Part shown: positions 23,042-62,002 of the stretch, piece by piece
Numbering within the stretch: the first letter of the stretch is position 1
How the letters are laid out: every line of letters starts with the position of its first letter
DNA from: Nitrospirota bacterium
Lineage (GTDB): Bacteria; Nitrospirota; UBA9217
DNA: 64,000 bases
Direction of reading: 5' to 3'
Assembly: GCA_963790205.1 (NCBI GenBank)
Contig: CAWBNQ010000011.1
Span: 25,591-89,590 of the forward strand
Made by a program: the position numbers and the translations under genes
The notes under the pieces: model-generated
What the model was told of the DNA's origin: nothing
Database searches by the model: none
The model's input: the letters and a program-made list of their open reading frames with translations, nothing else

Positions 23042-23143
23042 GCAAATTGCAAATTTTAAATTGCAAAATGGGGAATAGCCTTATGCCATAGCATCTCTTT
23101 CCTCTATTTTGAATTTTGCACTTTATACTTTACAATTTGCAAT
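23042..23143. repeat. Heptamer-periodic inverted repeat element (GCAAATT-like / AATTTGC-like)
   Basis: 4 heptamers at 23042-23069 and 5 reverse-oriented heptamers at 23106-23140. Confidence 0.7.
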
Positions 23144-23199
23144 CGCACGATTCACGCTACAATGCCAAGTTTTTATGAAAAATAACACAGGAGGTCTTC

Positions 23200-24636
23200 G
23201 TGAGAATATTACTCGTTAAACCGAACCCGCAGCTTCTGGTAGCAAAGCGCCTGCAGGAGGGGTTTCTGCATCTTGAGCCGCTTGAACTTGAGATGGTCGC
23301 TGCCGGCGCGCCGTCCGAGGACGAGGTCGTGATCCTGGACCTGAGTTTCGAGAAAGACCCGGTCCTGGGCTTTCAGGAGAAGGTCCGCGCCTTTGCTCCG
23401 CAGATCGTCGGCTTCACCGGCTACAGCAGCCAGTCCGGTCTGGTCAAGAGCCTTGCCGCGCTCGTCAAACAGCACGACCCCGCGATCGTGACCATTGTCG
23501 GCGGCACGCACGCGACGATCATTCCCGCGGATTACACGGTGAACTGCGACAGCCTCGACCTCATCGTGCGCGGCGAAGGCGGCACCGTGTTCGGCGAGAT
23601 CCTCAGGCGCTTCAAGAACAAGGAACCGCTGGCGTTCGGCGATGCCGTGCTCTCGCCCAAGGCCGCTGATTTCGCGGAGAAGGCGGCCGGACCGCCGCCG
23701 GAGTTCCCTCCCGTGGACCAGATCCCCCGGGCGCGCCGGGAGCTCGTTGACCGGTCCCGGTATTTCTGCGTCTGGACCTCGAGCACGGAAAAGAAGCTCG
23801 ACACGATCTTCCCGCGCACGGCAAGCATGCGCACGTCAACGGGCTGCGCCTACACATGTTCCTTCTGCGTGGTGCACTACCTGATGCGCGGCAAGTATCT
23901 CCAGCGCCGGCCCGAGGACGTGGTGGACGAGATCGCCAAGGTCCCCGAGGACCATATTTACTTTGTCGATGACGAGACCTTTCTGAACAAGGACCGTTTG
24001 ACCAAGATCGCGAATCTGCTGATCGAACGCGGGATCAAGAAGAAGTACATCAGCTGGGCCCGCGCCGACACGATCGTGAAATATCCCGAGCTCTTCAGGC
24101 TCTGGAAGCAGGTGGGCCTGAGCGTGGTCTACGTGGGGCTCGAAGCCATGGTCGGGTCACGGCTCGATAAATACAAAAAACGGACAAGCGTCGATACGAA
24201 CCGCAAGGCCGTGGAGTTCCTGAAAGAGATCGGGATCACGCTCCATGCGAGCTTCATGGTGGACCCCGACTTCTCGGTCCAGGACTTCAAAGACCTTGAA
24301 AAAGAGATCATGAAGGTCTGCCCGGCCGAGGTGACCTTCACGGTCTTCTCGCCCTCGCCGGGGACCGATCTCTGGAAACAGCATAAGGACGACTACATCT
24401 GCGATCCGTACCTGAACTACGACTGCATGCACACGATCCTTCCCACGACGCTGAACATGAACCTGTTCTATGCCCACTTCGCGAAACTGTCGCGGGTCGC
24501 CCTTCAGGCGAACCCGCTCAGGGTGAACAAGGTCAGGGTCCCGTTCCGGGAGACGCTTAAGATCATCTACCTCGGAACGCGGTATATCTTCGCCATGCGG
24601 AACATCTACAAGGACTATTTGCCGAAGAAAACATGA
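23200..24636 (+). CDS. B12-binding radical SAM protein
   Basis: HLEPLELE...IVGFTGY...IVGGTHAT B12 domain and GCAYTCSFC. Confidence 0.88.
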   Translation: MRILLVKPNPQLLVAKRLQEGFLHLEPLELEMVAAGAPSEDEVVILDLSFEKDPVLGFQEKVRAFAPQIVGFTGYSSQSGLVKSLAALVKQHDPAIVTIVGGTHATIIPADYTVNCDSLDLIVRGEGGTVFGEILRRFKNKEPLAFGDAVLSPKAADFAEKAAGPPPEFPPVDQIPRARRELVDRSRYFCVWTSSTEKKLDTIFPRTASMRTSTGCAYTCSFCVVHYLMRGKYLQRRPEDVVDEIAKVPEDHIYFVDDETFLNKDRLTKIANLLIERGIKKKYISWARADTIVKYPELFRLWKQVGLSVVYVGLEAMVGSRLDKYKKRTSVDTNRKAVEFLKEIGITLHASFMVDPDFSVQDFKDLEKEIMKVCPAEVTFTVFSPSPGTDLWKQHKDDYICDPYLNYDCMHTILPTTLNMNLFYAHFAKLSRVALQANPLRVNKVRVPFRETLKIIYLGTRYIFAMRNIYKDYLPKKT

Positions 24637-26060
24637 ATATCGTCTCTGTCATTAAACAGGCAACAGAAAATCATTTAGGGAAGACCGCGGTGATCGAGGG
24701 CGCCGACCGCGTGACCTATGGCCGGCTGCTTACGGCCGCTGAAGAGCTGGCCGATGTCCTGCGCAAGAAGGGTGTCGCGCGGCTCCACCGCGTGGGCCTT
24801 CTCTGCGACGACAGCATCGATTACGTTATCGTAAGCCTGGCGATCCTGTCCCTCTCCGCCGTCGTTGTTCCCGTGTCCCCGGAGCAGACCACGGAGGAAG
24901 CCGAGAAGGTCATTGACATCATCGATATCGACTTTCTCATCGCCGAGCCGCGGCTGTGGCAGAACGGATACGGCGACGCGCTGCAGTCGAGCGGTCTTGT
25001 CAGGAAAGAATTTACCATCGTGAAGAGGGTGGTCCGGGAAAAGCCGAAGGCGGAGTATTGCAGGACCAATCCCGCGTTCATCCGGTTCAGCTCCGGCACG
25101 ACGGGCGCGAGCAAGGGCGTCGTGCTGTCCCACGAGGCGATCATCGAACGGACCGATGCGGCCGACCGGGGCCTGCAGATAACAGCCCAGGATACGGTGC
25201 TCTGGGTCCTGTCCATGAGCTATCACTTCGTGGTCACGATCCTCCTGTTCCTCCGGCGCGGCGCGGCCATCGTGCTCTGCGGCACGCGGTTCCCGGACAC
25301 GCTCATCGAAGGCATCCGGACGCACGCCGGGACGTTCATCTATGCGTCGCCGTTCCATTACAGCCTGCTGTCGCGCGCCGATGCCCTTGGTCGTGATGAT
25401 CTGAAACACATCCGCTGCGCGGTCTCGACGGCAATGAAGCTTCCGGAAGTCGTGGCCGAGGAGTTTTCCGCAAAGTTCGGCATTGAGCTGACCGAGGCGT
25501 ACGGCATTATCGAGGTCGGCCTGCCTTTTGTACGGCTCACCGGCGGCAGAGACAAAAGGGGAACGGTAGGAAAACCCCTGCCCGACTTCGAAGTAAAACT
25601 CGACCGGAAAGACGCCGAGGGCGTGGGGGAGATCCGCATCAAGGGCAAGGGGATGCTCGATGCCTATTATTCTCCCTGGCAGTCGAGAGAGGACAGCCTG
25701 TCCGACGGCTGGTTCAAGACCGGCGATCTCGGCAGAATAGACAAGGACGGTTTCCTGACCATTGTGGGCAGGGAAAAGGACGTTATTAATTTCGTCGGCA
25801 TGAAGATCTTTGCCCAGGAAGTGGAGGCGGTGCTCAATCAGCACCCGCAGGTGAAAGAATCCCTCGTATACGGCGCAGCGCATCCCCAGTACGGACAGTT
25901 GCCCATGGCAAAGCTAGTTCTGCGCCAGGAGAACGGCGTGGACGTAAGCGAACTCAGGAAATTCTGCTATCAGCGGCTCGCCCAGTACAAGGTGCCGAAG
26001 GATTTCGAGTTCGTGGACCAGTTGCCCAAAACCGCGAGCGGAAAGATCAAAAGACAGTAA
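24633..26060 (+). CDS. AMP-dependent acyl-CoA/ACP ligase (ANL superfamily)
   Basis: FSSGTTGASKG, EAYGIIE, FKTGDLG and KTASGKI motifs. Confidence 0.9.
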   Translation: MNIVSVIKQATENHLGKTAVIEGADRVTYGRLLTAAEELADVLRKKGVARLHRVGLLCDDSIDYVIVSLAILSLSAVVVPVSPEQTTEEAEKVIDIIDIDFLIAEPRLWQNGYGDALQSSGLVRKEFTIVKRVVREKPKAEYCRTNPAFIRFSSGTTGASKGVVLSHEAIIERTDAADRGLQITAQDTVLWVLSMSYHFVVTILLFLRRGAAIVLCGTRFPDTLIEGIRTHAGTFIYASPFHYSLLSRADALGRDDLKHIRCAVSTAMKLPEVVAEEFSAKFGIELTEAYGIIEVGLPFVRLTGGRDKRGTVGKPLPDFEVKLDRKDAEGVGEIRIKGKGMLDAYYSPWQSREDSLSDGWFKTGDLGRIDKDGFLTIVGREKDVINFVGMKIFAQEVEAVLNQHPQVKESLVYGAAHPQYGQLPMAKLVLRQENGVDVSELRKFCYQRLAQYKVPKDFEFVDQLPKTASGKIKRQ

Positions 26061-61105: not shown

Positions 61106-61221
61106 AAAGAGAGGCAGGCTTCATGATGCATGACTGAAAAGCGTACCTATGAATTTATGGCATCGTCATGGATTGTGCATCAGGTATCATGGATCATGCG
61201 CCGCACGAACGAGGAAAAACC

Positions 61222-61911
61222 ATGAATAACGAACGAGGCGGAATCATATCAACAATTGTCCTTATCCCGGTCGCGTTGGCCCTGATGGCCGGCTTCTTCT
61301 TCCTGGGCTATTTTGTGGGAAAATACCAGAGTAAATCCGGCGCGCCGGGCGATGCCATGCCTCCGATGCCGGAGATCATATCAAAAAACCTCCCGAAGCA
61401 GGACGAGTTCACGTTCTACAAGACCCTGACCGATAAGTATGACAAGACGGTTTCGATAGATCTTAATCCGAAAACCGCCGCCGGAGAAAAGCATGTTGAC
61501 AAAAAACCGGCTGCCGGTGAAACGGCCCCGGCGAAGGGCGCGCAACAGCTCCCGAATGATAAAAAAATGGAAGCCCCGGCCGCCCGCGACAAAACAGCCG
61601 AGGCCGGGCAGGGCGCTCCGAAGCGGCAGATTTCCGCCAAAAAGGAAACCATGCCCGCCCGGAAACCGAATGCCCGGCTGCGCTACACGCTTCAAATAGC
61701 GGCGTATCAGGAAAAAGGAATGGCTGAAGACGATATGAAGAAGATGAAGCAGCAGGGATATGCGGCCTTCCTGGTTGCATTCGATTTGCCGGGAAAAGGC
61801 ACCTGGTACCGCGTGAGGCTCGGGAGTTTTTCAAGCAAGGCTTCGGCGGAAAAACTGCAAAAAGAGGTCCGCGCGAAAGTAGGCATTTCACCGTTCATAA
61901 CGATCGAGTGA
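61222..61911 (+). CDS. Membrane-anchored SPOR-domain protein (FtsN/DedD-like)
   Basis: Single TM, low-complexity linker, YTLQIAAY...WYRVRLGSF SPOR domain. Confidence 0.85.
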   Translation: MNNERGGIISTIVLIPVALALMAGFFFLGYFVGKYQSKSGAPGDAMPPMPEIISKNLPKQDEFTFYKTLTDKYDKTVSIDLNPKTAAGEKHVDKKPAAGETAPAKGAQQLPNDKKMEAPAARDKTAEAGQGAPKRQISAKKETMPARKPNARLRYTLQIAAYQEKGMAEDDMKKMKQQGYAAFLVAFDLPGKGTWYRVRLGSFSSKASAEKLQKEVRAKVGISPFITIE

Positions 61912-62002
61912 AAGTCCGGAAGTTGAGAAGATGGGACGATACGAAGATAAGGCTCCGGGTATTCAAACTTCACAGCATCTCATCTACGGCGGTTATCTTA
62001 AC

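What the first reader, a model, noticed from the sequence alone, without database searches (positions are those of the whole stretch)
23042..61986. Recurrent 7-bp-periodic, often inverted intergenic arrays whose unit sequence differs at each locus
Seen: heptamer runs, many starting just after stop codons. GCAAATT/AATTTGC at 23042-23143; AGGGTCC/CCTGGMC at 28463-28586; CGGAGTY at 30914-30941, 31795-31808 and 33974-34011; GCGGATT/AAATCCR at 42394-42465; GACGAGG/NTCGTCC at 58779-59417; a weaker one at 61920-61986. The period and the forward-then-reverse arm layout recur while the unit sequence changes, which does not fit ordinary REP or IS copies. Inference: a generative mechanism (templated slippage or an RNA-based element) lays down 7-mer hairpin arms at gene boundaries, perhaps acting as mRNA stabilisers or terminators.
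Basis: partly seen in the sequence, partly recalled or inferred. Interest (0 to 1): 0.66.

Follow-up and report, generated by a model that had tools for sequence, protein, structure and literature searches.

The report
Seven-base repeat hairpins between genes
The gaps between genes in this Nitrospirota genome hold hundreds of short runs of 7-base repeats, often as two mirror-image arms; this is a known but unexplained kind of bacterial repeat, and across 26 related genomes it was common only in those that also carry a small four-helix-bundle gene, which itself sits between such arms.

Summary
Seven of the eight cited places hold period-7 arrays; 61920-61986 does not. Genome-wide, period 7 dominates: 243 arrays against 8 at period 8. 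There are 107 different units. Arms are mostly 4-5 units long. Arrays abut stop codons and avoid gaps between divergent genes. In two-arm forms the purine-rich arm comes first in 52 of 58.

This matches published heptanucleotide repeats (cyanobacterial STRR, Xanthomonas/Nostoc GGGNATC, Geobacter metallireducens), whose function is still unknown. It is a new member of a known kind.

- The arrays are not fixed mobile copies, because loops differ between hairpins that share a unit.
- They are not classical terminators and mostly cannot form G-quadruplexes.
- Hairpin folds favour neither strand as RNA.
- Some arrays lie in frame inside conserved enzymes (CarB, HypF).
- Some have kept their place at orthologous gaps across genera while units and copy numbers drifted.

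The strongest lead is a link to TIGR02436 four-helix-bundle genes, the protein family of 23S rRNA intervening sequences. All four in this genome sit between inverted heptamer arms. In 26 relatives, gene presence separates array-rich from array-poor genomes completely (rho 0.91). What the protein does is untested. No sequencing reads could be consulted.

The parts
23042..23143 (.). Two-arm heptamer hairpin, GCAAATT units then AATTTGC units. It lies between the stop of an FAD-oxidoreductase-like ORF (23026) and a B12/radical-SAM gene (23200).
   Evidence: TRF; my detector (23042-23070 and 23105-23143, partner arm within 1-2 mismatches of 14); fold z = -2.89.
28463..28586 (.). Composite hairpin of AGGGTCC forward units and GGACCCT/CTGGCCC reverse units. 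It fills the pyrR-pyrB gap.
   Evidence: TRF; fold z = -3.18. The gap is 161 nt here and 37 nt, with one AGGGTCC unit, in the nearest MAG.
30910..30941 (+). Single purine-rich arm (TGCGGCG TCCGGAG TCCGGAG ...) that starts at the pyrC stop codon.
   Evidence: TRF; sequence. Orthologous arrays start at the same stop in 7 genera.
31793..31808 (+). Two-unit remnant (TGCGGAG TTCGGAG) directly after a stop codon.
   Evidence: Sequence. Not significant alone; relatives have 3-4 units at this gap.
33973..34011 (+). Single purine-rich arm, AGTTCGG x5.6. It runs from the stop codon to 14 nt before the carB start.
   Evidence: TRF; sequence. Other genera have a different array type (AAATTGN hairpin) at this gap.
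35705..35744 (+). In-frame heptamer array (CAGGGKC units) inside carB, within an 18-residue insert relative to E. coli CarB.
   Evidence: TRF (35708-35740); sequence; PDB alignment shows the 18-aa gap between YSTYE and ECEANP.
42394..42465 (.). Two adjoining arms, GCGGATT-type then AAATCCR-type, that fill the xerD to A-adding tRNA nucleotidyltransferase gap.
   Evidence: TRF; sequence; weak stem, z = -1.91.
58775..58857 (+). 5' arm of the gene-carrying form: about 11 GACGAGG-like units from the Na/Pi-cotransporter stop to 4 nt before the ATG.
   Evidence: TRF (10.3 copies); inverted-repeat pairs with the 3' arm.
58861..59244 (+). Four-helix-bundle protein gene (TIGR02436, the 23S rRNA intervening-sequence protein / Avd-like family) in the loop between the arms.
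   Evidence: NCBIfam TIGR02436, 105 bits against a cut-off of 24.
59270..59417 (+). 3' arm: CCTCGTC/CCATCGT-like units, interrupted by other short repeats, ending 15 nt before the yjbQ start.
   Evidence: The minimum-energy and centroid folds pair it with the 5' arm around the gene.
26072..26172 (.). Gene-less hairpin of the sister class, period about 9, CTCGCAAAG / CTTTGCGNG.
   Evidence: TRF; sequence. The same arm type flanks GxxExxY genes elsewhere in the genome.
32955..33067 (.). Gene-less hairpin of the sister class, period about 8, ACGCGGAG / CTCCGCG, in the carA-downstream gap.
   Evidence: TRF; fold z = -5.05.
59868..59942 (.). Gene-less hairpin of the sister class, period about 9, GCCGCAAAAAG / CTTTTTGCG.
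   Evidence: TRF; sequence.

Best explanation
These loci belong to a genome-wide population of heptanucleotide tandem arrays. They are the same kind of thing as cyanobacterial STRR, the Xanthomonas/Nostoc GGGNATC repeats and the Geobacter metallireducens heptanucleotide sites.

Shown:
- The basic form is a purine-rich arm of about 4-5 units, a loop, and a pyrimidine-rich complementary arm. Single arms look like half-elements.
- The arrays sit mainly 3' of genes, flush with stop codons. They can also lie in frame inside genes.
- They persist at the same site across genera while unit sequence and copy number change.
- Complementarity is carried by the unit, not by an exact mirrored copy, so the stem can pair in several registers.
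- The gene-carrying version holds a TIGR02436 four-helix-bundle gene in the loop, as at 58775-59417. That is the layout of ORF-bearing 23S rRNA intervening sequences.
- Gene-less arrays are abundant only in genomes that also have such genes.

Inferred:
- Arrays are remodelled in place by slippage or unequal exchange between 7-nt units.
- The two arms of a locus are kept alike by exchange through the hairpin or cruciform.
- Two-arm forms fold in the transcript into long imperfect stems that RNase III probably cuts, as in the rRNA intervening sequences.
- The four-helix-bundle protein is functionally tied to the arrays. How is not known.
For: - Period-7 excess.
- Arm length has a mode at 4.0-4.9 units and drops sharply at 5 or more.
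- 75 of 243 arrays have an inverted partner within 200 nt, against 8 with shuffled units.
- The purine-rich arm is 5' in 52 of 58 hairpins, p = 3e-10.
- Single arms next to a stop are purine-rich on the sense strand in 25 of 25. Those near the start only are pyrimidine-rich in 10 of 13.
- Arrays adjoin stop codons and are depleted in divergent gaps.
- Loops of same-unit hairpins are unrelated.
- Arm-to-arm identity is 0.655 in the best register, 0.557 when shifted by 7, and 0.64 within an arm.
- Orthologous pyr-operon gaps in 8 genomes show position conservation, unit drift and lineage-specific replacement.
- In-frame inserts in CarB and HypF are confirmed against solved structures.
- All 4 TIGR02436 genes of the genome lie between inverted heptamer arms, each with its own unit.
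- In 31 such loci from this genome and relatives, 23 exceed the 99th percentile of controls for flank complementarity. The best period is 7 in 24 of 31, against 16% of controls.
- After masking arrays near the genes, all 12 sampled genomes with the gene have 3-16 arrays per 100 kb. All 14 without it have 0-2.8 (Mann-Whitney U = 168 of 168, p = 6e-6; Spearman rho = 0.91). The split holds within the overlapping genome-size range.
- One orthologous gene pair is gapless with dN/dS about 0.11, though dS is saturated.
- Published parallels: four-unit preference, position near stops, inverted pairs and variation between relatives (PMC4692102, PMC2700814); heptamers in the Coxiella intervening-sequence stem (PMC4990558).
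Against: - No transcript or processing data.
- The co-occurrence test is not corrected for phylogeny, samples only about 20-100 kb per genome, and uses draft MAGs in which repeats and small genes can be lost.
- One genome without a detected four-helix-bundle gene (G015) still has arrays in the pyr operon.
- The commonest units in this genome (GCGGATT, GCGGAAT, CGGAGTT) flank no four-helix-bundle gene here. The protein therefore cannot be a unit-specific reader with one gene per unit.
- Near-identical N-termini go with different arms (L092 and L093).
- The 5'-purine polarity and the 4-5-unit arm length are unexplained by slippage.
- My gene map is a crude longest-ORF map.
Confidence: 0.6

Rival explanations
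1. Plain simple-sequence repeats. DNA polymerase slips preferentially on 7-nt units (Mrazek's proposal), arrays grow and shrink neutrally wherever selection allows, and no dedicated factor exists. The link to four-helix-bundle genes arises because those genes can only settle in existing hairpin loops, or because both simply mark repeat-tolerant genomes.
For: - Copy number and unit sequence differ at orthologous gaps.
- The nearest MAG has a single-unit hairpin where this genome has an array.
- Loops are unrelated, and stems pair in any register.
- The slippage idea is in print, as cited in PMC4679880 and PMC4692102.
Against: - Slippage alone predicts a roughly geometric length distribution, not a mode at 4-5 units with a cut-off.
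- It does not predict inverted partner arms (75 against 8) or the 52 of 58 purine-first polarity.
- It does not predict the same unit families appearing at three separate sites inside one conserved enzyme.
- Relatives of similar genome size in the same family lack arrays entirely.
Confidence: 0.25
2. Cis-acting RNA elements selected for function in operon transcripts. Purine-rich, Shine-Dalgarno-like repeats just after stop codons, and stems between cistrons, would act in mRNA processing, stability, protection from Rho, or translational coupling.
For: - Arrays abut stops more often than expected.
- The sense strand is purine-rich in 25 of 25 stop-adjacent single arms.
- GGA is enriched in units, 0.37 against 0.23.
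- Position and unit family are conserved at the pyrC-downstream gap in 7 genera.
- Divergent, promoter-bearing gaps are depleted.
- Most such repeats are transcribed in Xanthomonas (PMC4692102).
Against: - Hairpin folds show no sense-strand advantage and no excess of G-U pairs.
- The 25 of 25 result follows from hairpin polarity plus loss of one arm.
- Arrays also sit in convergent gaps and inside coding sequence.
- Units such as GCAAATT and AAATTGN have no Shine-Dalgarno-like core.
- No Rfam family matches, and there are no terminator features.
Confidence: 0.2
3. Miniature transposable elements (MITE- or REP-like) copied from a master element by a transposase.
For: They are dispersed, often have inverted arms, and include a gene-carrying form.
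Against: - Copies share only the 7-nt unit, not loops or flanks.
- There are 107 different units.
- The nearest MAG keeps one unit of each arm at the pyrR-pyrB site, so no clean empty site with a target duplication is seen there.
- The only gene associated with the arms here is a small non-catalytic helical bundle.
- Arms are not mirrored copies.
Confidence: 0.03
4. G-quadruplex-forming repeats, as proposed for GGGNATC arrays in Xanthomonas and Nostoc. On this view the four-unit preference reflects the four G-tracts that a quadruplex needs.
For: The preference for about 4 units matches PMC4692102. A few units (CAGGGGC, AGGGTCC, ACGAGGG) carry G-runs.
Against: Only 18 of 243 array units contain GGG on either strand. 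The commonest units (GCGGATT, AAGAAGT, GCGGAAT, CGGAGTT) cannot form quadruplexes yet show the same arm length.
Confidence: 0.04

Closest known systems
Heptameric repeats GGGAATC / GGGGA(C/T)T of Xanthomonas and Nostoc (Rehm et al. 2015, PMC4692102) and cyanobacterial STRR sequences (Mazel et al. 1990, cited from my own knowledge; Vioque 1997, as listed in PMC2858038)
   Same: - 7-nt tandem units spread over the genome, with a bias to non-coding DNA.
- A preference for about four units.
- The G/purine-rich strand lies on the sense side just after stop codons.
- Rare between divergent genes.
- Sometimes occur as inverted pairs.
- Sit at the same gaps in related species, with variable length and sequence.
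- Function unknown.
- STRR arrays also occur inside a structured RNA gene (RNase P RNA), which parallels the in-gene arrays here.
   Different: - Those genomes are dominated by one or a few units; this genome has 107 unit kinds.
- Most units here cannot form G-quadruplexes.
- The hairpin (two-arm) form and its purine-first polarity are prominent here.
- The papers I read draw no link to a protein family.
Multicopy heptanucleotide elements of Geobacter metallireducens (Aklujkar et al. 2009, PMC2700814)
   Same: - Families of four or five tandem heptanucleotides: GGACCGG x4 in 49 places, and MTYCTGA x5 as inverted pairs at variable distance.
- Found between genes and inside genes, sometimes several per gene.
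- The MTYCTGA unit resembles the TCCTGAC arms of the C3:880136 four-helix-bundle pseudogene here.
   Different: They were interpreted as binding sites for global regulators (IHF/HU) or as regulatory RNAs. They are in a different phylum. The passages I read do not mention an enclosed gene.
ORF-bearing intervening sequences of 23S rRNA (Coxiella burnetii, Leptospira; Warrier et al. 2016, PMC4990558)
   Same: - A gene of the same protein family (S23p / four-helix bundle) lies in the loop of a long stem made by complementary termini.
- Tandem heptamers (GACAGAT) sit in the 5' part of the stem, with copy number varying between strains.
- The stem is cut by RNase III in that system.
   Different: Here the cassette lies between protein-coding genes, not in an rRNA helix. 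The arms are longer arrays. Most members in this genome carry no gene. RNase III processing is untested here. One gene copy here is under purifying selection, whereas the Coxiella ORF is reported to be decaying.
REP/BIME elements with RAYT transposases (REPINs), from my own knowledge
   Same: Short, intergenic, hairpin-forming repeats in hundreds of copies, tied to one associated gene family.
   Different: REP copies share one conserved palindromic sequence per genome and a tyrosine-transposase partner. Here only the period and the layout are shared, and the associated gene encodes a small helical bundle with no known catalytic motif.

Membership tests
Heptanucleotide tandem repeats of prokaryotes (STRR / long simple-sequence-repeat type, as in PMC4692102) | Tandem direct repeats with a 7-nt unit, over-represented against other periods | tested here: met
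   243 arrays at lag 7 against 8 at lag 8. TRF arrays of at least 4 copies: 166 against 9-26 at periods 6, 8 and 9.
Heptanucleotide tandem repeats of prokaryotes (STRR / long simple-sequence-repeat type, as in PMC4692102) | Enriched in non-coding DNA, near stop codons on the sense strand, and rare between divergent genes | tested here: met
   130 of 243 arrays lie in the roughly 10% of the genome that is non-coding. 32 of 78 lie within 10 nt of a stop, against 17.5 expected. 15 lie in divergent gaps, against about 25 expected. Stop-adjacent single arms are purine-rich on the sense strand in 25 of 25.
Heptanucleotide tandem repeats of prokaryotes (STRR / long simple-sequence-repeat type, as in PMC4692102) | Preferred array length of about four units | tested here: met
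   The mode is at 4.0-4.9 copies (131 arrays), with 9 or fewer per half-unit bin from 5.0 upward.
Heptanucleotide tandem repeats of prokaryotes (STRR / long simple-sequence-repeat type, as in PMC4692102) | One or a few dominant unit sequences per genome | tested here: not met
   There are 107 canonical units. The commonest accounts for 19 of 243 arrays.
ORF-bearing 23S rRNA intervening sequence | S23p / four-helix-bundle ORF enclosed by complementary termini that form a long stem | tested here: met
   TIGR02436, 105 bits. Inverted pairs of 17-19 nt at 82-89% complementarity. The minimum-energy and centroid folds pair the arms. This applies to 58775-59417 only.
ORF-bearing 23S rRNA intervening sequence | Inserted in helix 25 or 45 of a 23S rRNA gene | tested here: not met
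   The cassette lies between a Na/Pi-cotransporter gene and yjbQ. Rfam finds no rRNA in the window.
ORF-bearing 23S rRNA intervening sequence | Excised from the transcript by RNase III | not testable with these tools
MITE / REP-type mobile repeats | Copies share a conserved full-length sequence (termini plus interior), with target-site duplications | tested here: not met
   Ten hairpins with GCGGATT-type units have unrelated loops and flanks. The one site compared with an array-free relative shows no duplication.
Intrinsic (Rho-independent) terminators | G+C-rich stem followed by a T/U tract, at the end of a transcription unit | tested here: not met
   28 terminator-like sites against 22.8 in shuffles. 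None lies on the gene strand at a cited array. The cited arrays sit between co-directional genes a few tens to about 170 nt apart.
G-quadruplex-forming repeats | A G-run of at least 3 in each unit | tested here: not met
   18 of 243 units contain GGG on either strand.

The most novel reading that the evidence does not exclude
Heptamer-array hairpins and TIGR02436 four-helix-bundle proteins form one genetic system. The pentameric, Avd-like protein would bind an arm, with five subunits matching the 4-5-unit arm length, or would otherwise keep or process the periodic arms. The hundreds of gene-less arrays would then be its non-autonomous members. rRNA intervening sequences would be the copies that landed in rRNA. 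The GxxExxY gene family, with its period-8/9 arms, would be a second, parallel system. This would give a mechanism for the long-noted excess of 7-nt repeats in bacteria and a first function for a very large protein family.
Probability: 0.3. Interest if true: 0.85.

Novelty: new member of a known kind. Interest (0 to 1): 0.58.

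Why it matters
An excess of 7-nt tandem repeats in bacterial genomes has been in print since 1990 (STRR) and was generalised in 2007. No mechanism or function has been established. The PF05635/TIGR02436 four-helix-bundle family is large, has solved structures, and outside diversity-generating retroelements has no known role.

This genome and its relatives offer a clean comparative setting. Within one family of Nitrospirota, some genera have both the arrays and the gene, and others have neither. 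That turns a vague "repeat excess" into a testable pairing. The analysis also yields constraints that any model must meet:
- arms of 4-5 units;
- the purine-rich arm first;
- stems that pair in any register;
- locus-specific units;
- tolerance of in-frame insertion into enzymes.

For annotation, the arrays explain odd short inserts in conserved enzymes such as CarB, HypF and an aminoacyl-tRNA synthetase-like ORF. They also explain over-long spacers between closely spaced co-directional genes.

Tried and rejected
- A natural contrast between Geobacter metallireducens (arrays reported) and G. sulfurreducens (none reported), reached through a pilin query: the scan returned no named record of either species, so I dropped it.
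- A first, strict test for arms around four-helix-bundle genes gave 3 of 27. It needed long clean arrays, and the ORF starts were over-extended. I replaced it with a flank-complementarity and best-lag test against 300 control ORFs.
- Search for a decayed four-helix-bundle gene in the 280-nt loop of C8:127401-127744 and in a 1.1-kb inter-arm stretch: none found.
Only match lengths (360-465 nt for the same 140 residues) were obtained.
- RNA-level selection test (sense against antisense fold energy and G-U pair counts): no signal.
- Fold-back-copy model for the second arm: not supported, because a shift of 7 pairs nearly as well as the best register.
- Rfam: no family other than the CRISPR repeat.
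- Two reverse-transcriptase genes exist in the genome. Neither is near an array-flanked gene examined here, and I did not pursue them.

Full report
**Observation.** I read every cited place and ran Tandem Repeats Finder on the window.
- Period-7 arrays are present at 23042-23143, 28463-28586, 30910-30941, 33973-34011 and 42394-42465, and on both sides of 58861-59244.
- 31795-31808 has only two units.
- 61920-61986 has no periodicity and no stem (fold z = +1.4), so that item fails.
- The two-arm loci fold better than dinucleotide shuffles: z = -2.9, -3.2 and -1.9.

**Is it more than chance?** The window lies in a 4.34-Mb, 14-contig genome.
- TRF arrays of at least 4 copies number 166 at period 7. 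At periods 6, 8 and 9 they number 18, 9 and 26.
- My lag-identity detector gives 243 arrays at lag 7 and 8 at lag 8. A stricter detector run on a fifth-order Markov simulation of the genome gave none at any period.
- There are 107 canonical units.

**Organism.** The closest PyrB loci in the named collection are Nitrospirota MAGs, at 90% and 70% identity.

**Anatomy.**
- 130 of 243 arrays lie in the roughly 10% of the genome outside my crude longest-ORF map.
- 75 arrays have a reverse-complement partner within 200 nt, against 8 with shuffled units.
- The 5' arm is the purine-rich one in 52 of 58 hairpins (p = 3e-10).
- Single arms within 10 nt of an upstream stop are purine-rich on the sense strand in 25 of 25. 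Arms near the downstream start only are pyrimidine-rich in 10 of 13. This follows from the hairpin polarity if single arms are half-elements.
- In gaps between co-directional genes, 32 of 78 arrays lie within 10 nt of the stop, against 17.5 expected (P about 5e-5).
- In convergent gaps, 28 of 36 touch a stop. Divergent gaps are depleted.
- Copy number has a mode at 4.0-4.9 units and falls sharply at 5 or more.
- Units are A/G-rich, enriched in GGA and CGG, and poor in stop triplets.
- Only 18 of 243 units contain GGG.

**What it is not.**
- Hairpins that share GCGGATT-type units have unrelated loops and flanks, so they are not copies of a MITE or REP consensus.
- Arm-to-arm identity is 0.655 in the best register and 0.557 when shifted by one unit. 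That is about the same as unit-to-unit identity within an arm (0.64). The second arm is therefore not a recent fold-back copy, and the stem can pair in several registers.
- Sense and antisense RNA folds are equally stable (18 against 18), and G-U pairs number 97 against 109. Nothing suggests the stems are selected in the mRNA.
- Terminator-like sites are not enriched, and none coincides with an array on the gene strand.
- Rfam matches only the 51 CRISPR repeats at 53430-57013.

**Arrays inside genes.** 38 arrays lie deep inside long ORFs. They use the same unit families as intergenic arrays and are translated in frame.
- CarB carries an 18-residue insert relative to E. coli CarB between YSTYE and ECEANP. 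The insert contains the CAGGGKC array at 35705-35744.
- HypF carries extra residues at three array sites relative to a solved HypF structure.
- In family members the CarB segment varies from 408 to 465 nt for the same 140 residues. In more distant genomes it is 360-402 nt. That site is therefore a long-standing variable linker.

**Orthologous gaps.** The pyrR-pyrB-pyrC-X-carA-Y-carB cluster is syntenic across the family. I extracted each gap from 8 genomes.
- The gap after pyrC starts with an array of T[GT]CGGA[GAT] units directly at the stop codon in 7 genera, with different copy numbers and variants.
- The pyrR-pyrB gap has a TGCGGAG-type single arm in four genera, nothing in one, the AGGGTCC hairpin here, and a 37-nt gap with a single-unit AGGGTCC hairpin in the nearest MAG.
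- The gap before carB has the AGTTCGG arm here and an AAATTGN hairpin in two other genera.

Sites are therefore long-lived, while their contents turn over and can be replaced.

**The gene-carrying form.**
- 58861-59244 encodes a TIGR02436 four-helix-bundle protein, the 23S rRNA intervening-sequence protein / Avd-like family.
- It lies between GACGAGG and CCTCGTC arms that pair in the minimum-energy and centroid folds.
- The genome has four such genes, one of them a pseudogene. All four lie between inverted heptamer arms, each with its own unit: CAGGGKC, GACGAGG, AAGAAGT and GTCAGGA.
- In 31 loci from this genome and 40 relatives, flank complementarity exceeds the 99th percentile of 300 control ORFs in 23. 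The best period among 5-11 is 7 in 24, against 16% of controls.
- One orthologous pair at the same locus in two genera is 120 residues and gapless, with dN/dS about 0.11, though dS is saturated. Its arms keep the CAGGGNC unit family.

**Co-occurrence test.** I sampled about 20-100 kb from each of 28 relatives. I counted lag-7 arrays after masking 400 nt around any four-helix-bundle gene.
- Among genomes with at least 30 kb sampled, all 12 with the gene have 3-16 arrays per 100 kb.
- All 14 without it have 0-2.8, with a median of 0.
- Mann-Whitney U = 168 of a possible 168 (p = 6e-6). Spearman rho between gene number and array density is 0.91.
- Both states occur within the window's own family and in other families. 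The split also holds among genomes of 2.4-3.4 Mb.

Caveats:
- There is no phylogenetic correction.
- The sample is small.
- Draft MAGs can lose repeats and small genes.
- G015 has arrays in the pyr operon but no detected gene.

**Comparison with the literature.**
- The properties found here match those of GGGNATC repeats in Xanthomonas and Nostoc: non-coding bias, four-unit preference, position near stops on the sense strand, rarity between divergent genes, inverted pairs, and variation between close relatives. Function there is unknown (PMC4692102).
- G. metallireducens has four- and five-unit heptanucleotide families between and inside genes, some as inverted pairs (PMC2700814).
- TAACTGA repeats are described in Beggiatoaceae. 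That paper summarises the general heptanucleotide excess and the slippage proposal (PMC4679880).
- The Coxiella 23S intervening sequence has tandem GACAGAT heptamers in a stem around an S23p ORF, and RNase III cuts it (PMC4990558).
- I found no paper in the held library that links the protein family to genome-wide heptamer arrays.
- Earlier notes of this scan report the gene-between-arms layout many times. I used them as leads. My co-occurrence test, polarity statistics and orthologous-gap comparison were run independently here.

**Verdict.** The thing is a Nitrospirota instance of a known, unexplained repeat class, so I rate it a new member of a known kind.
The terminator or stabiliser role is not.
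- The most useful result is the tight genome-level link to four-helix-bundle genes, together with a set of constraints for any mechanism.
- Shown: periodicity, layout, polarity, positions, in-gene inserts, site conservation with turnover, and co-occurrence.
- Inferred: slippage or unequal exchange as the remodelling process, RNase III processing of the stems, and any action of the protein on the arrays.

Noticed in passing
window 26072-26172, 32955-33067, 59868-59942 (also 29565-29610); genome C1:1053999, C6:63136, C3:657483, C2:41956, C5:80613, C6:37848: A second class of hairpins is built from period-8/9 units (CTCGCAAAG, ACGCGGAG, GCCGCAAAAAG). The genome has 8 GxxExxY (TIGR04256) genes or fragments. 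Six of the seven loci I read lie between inverted arms of this type (C5:46043 has none obvious). In the nearest MAG such a cassette replaces the heptamer array in the gap after pyrC.
   Followed up: partly
window 35705-35744 (carB); genome C8:252698-255115 (hypF, 3 sites), C1:511974-515936 (2 sites), C1:772466-775165 (P-type ATPase-like ORF, 2 sites), C1:324646-327483 (aminoacyl-tRNA synthetase-like ORF), C3:446219-448990 (2 sites): Heptamer arrays are translated in frame as short peptide inserts (for example [22 protein letters not shown]) inside long, conserved-looking ORFs, several per protein. Only CarB and HypF were identified and checked against solved structures.
   Followed up: partly
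window 53430-57013: A CRISPR array of 51 repeats (Rfam CRISPR-DR9). The repeat GTAGCGCCCCTCAGCGATGAGGGGCGAGGATTGAAAC is close to the CRISPR3 repeat reported for Geobacter metallireducens. Long ORFs at 45600-53263 upstream may be cas genes; I did not examine them.
   Followed up: no
genome C1:76852-77064, C1:658769-658981, C1:770467-770679, C1:993051-993263: Four partial TIGR02436 matches (profile positions 4-69) lie inside longer ORFs of 189-300 residues. At the one locus I read, the ORF follows one that looks like a DNA-methyltransferase C-terminus, and the flanks hold GGACGG/CACGGAC-type short repeats. This may be a different branch of the family, in a restriction-modification setting.
   Followed up: no
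window 29552-29638, 32948-33062 and 59868-59940; genome C1:913302, C1:927503: These intergenic stretches match each other, and places in several relatives, at 70-80% identity in the DNA search. The period-8/9 hairpins therefore form a dispersed family that BLAST can detect.
   Followed up: no
window 62010-62130: Just beyond the unconfirmed 61920-61986 item lies a different repeat-like stretch (CATTGCGAGGAGCG...CGACGCGGCAATG, then GCTTCGCTGCGCTCGCAAAG). It has palindromic parts and resembles REP-type sequence rather than a heptamer array.
   Followed up: no
genome C8:127401-127744: AAGTAAG and TTACTTC arms (the second 6 perfect units) enclose 280 nt with no four-helix-bundle remnant. The content of the loop is unknown.
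   Followed up: partly
window 23109-23163 and 42420-42455: The A+T-rich pyrimidine arms of two hairpins give sigma-70 promoter-like consensus matches (9 of 12) just upstream of the next gene. These are consensus matches only.
   Followed up: no
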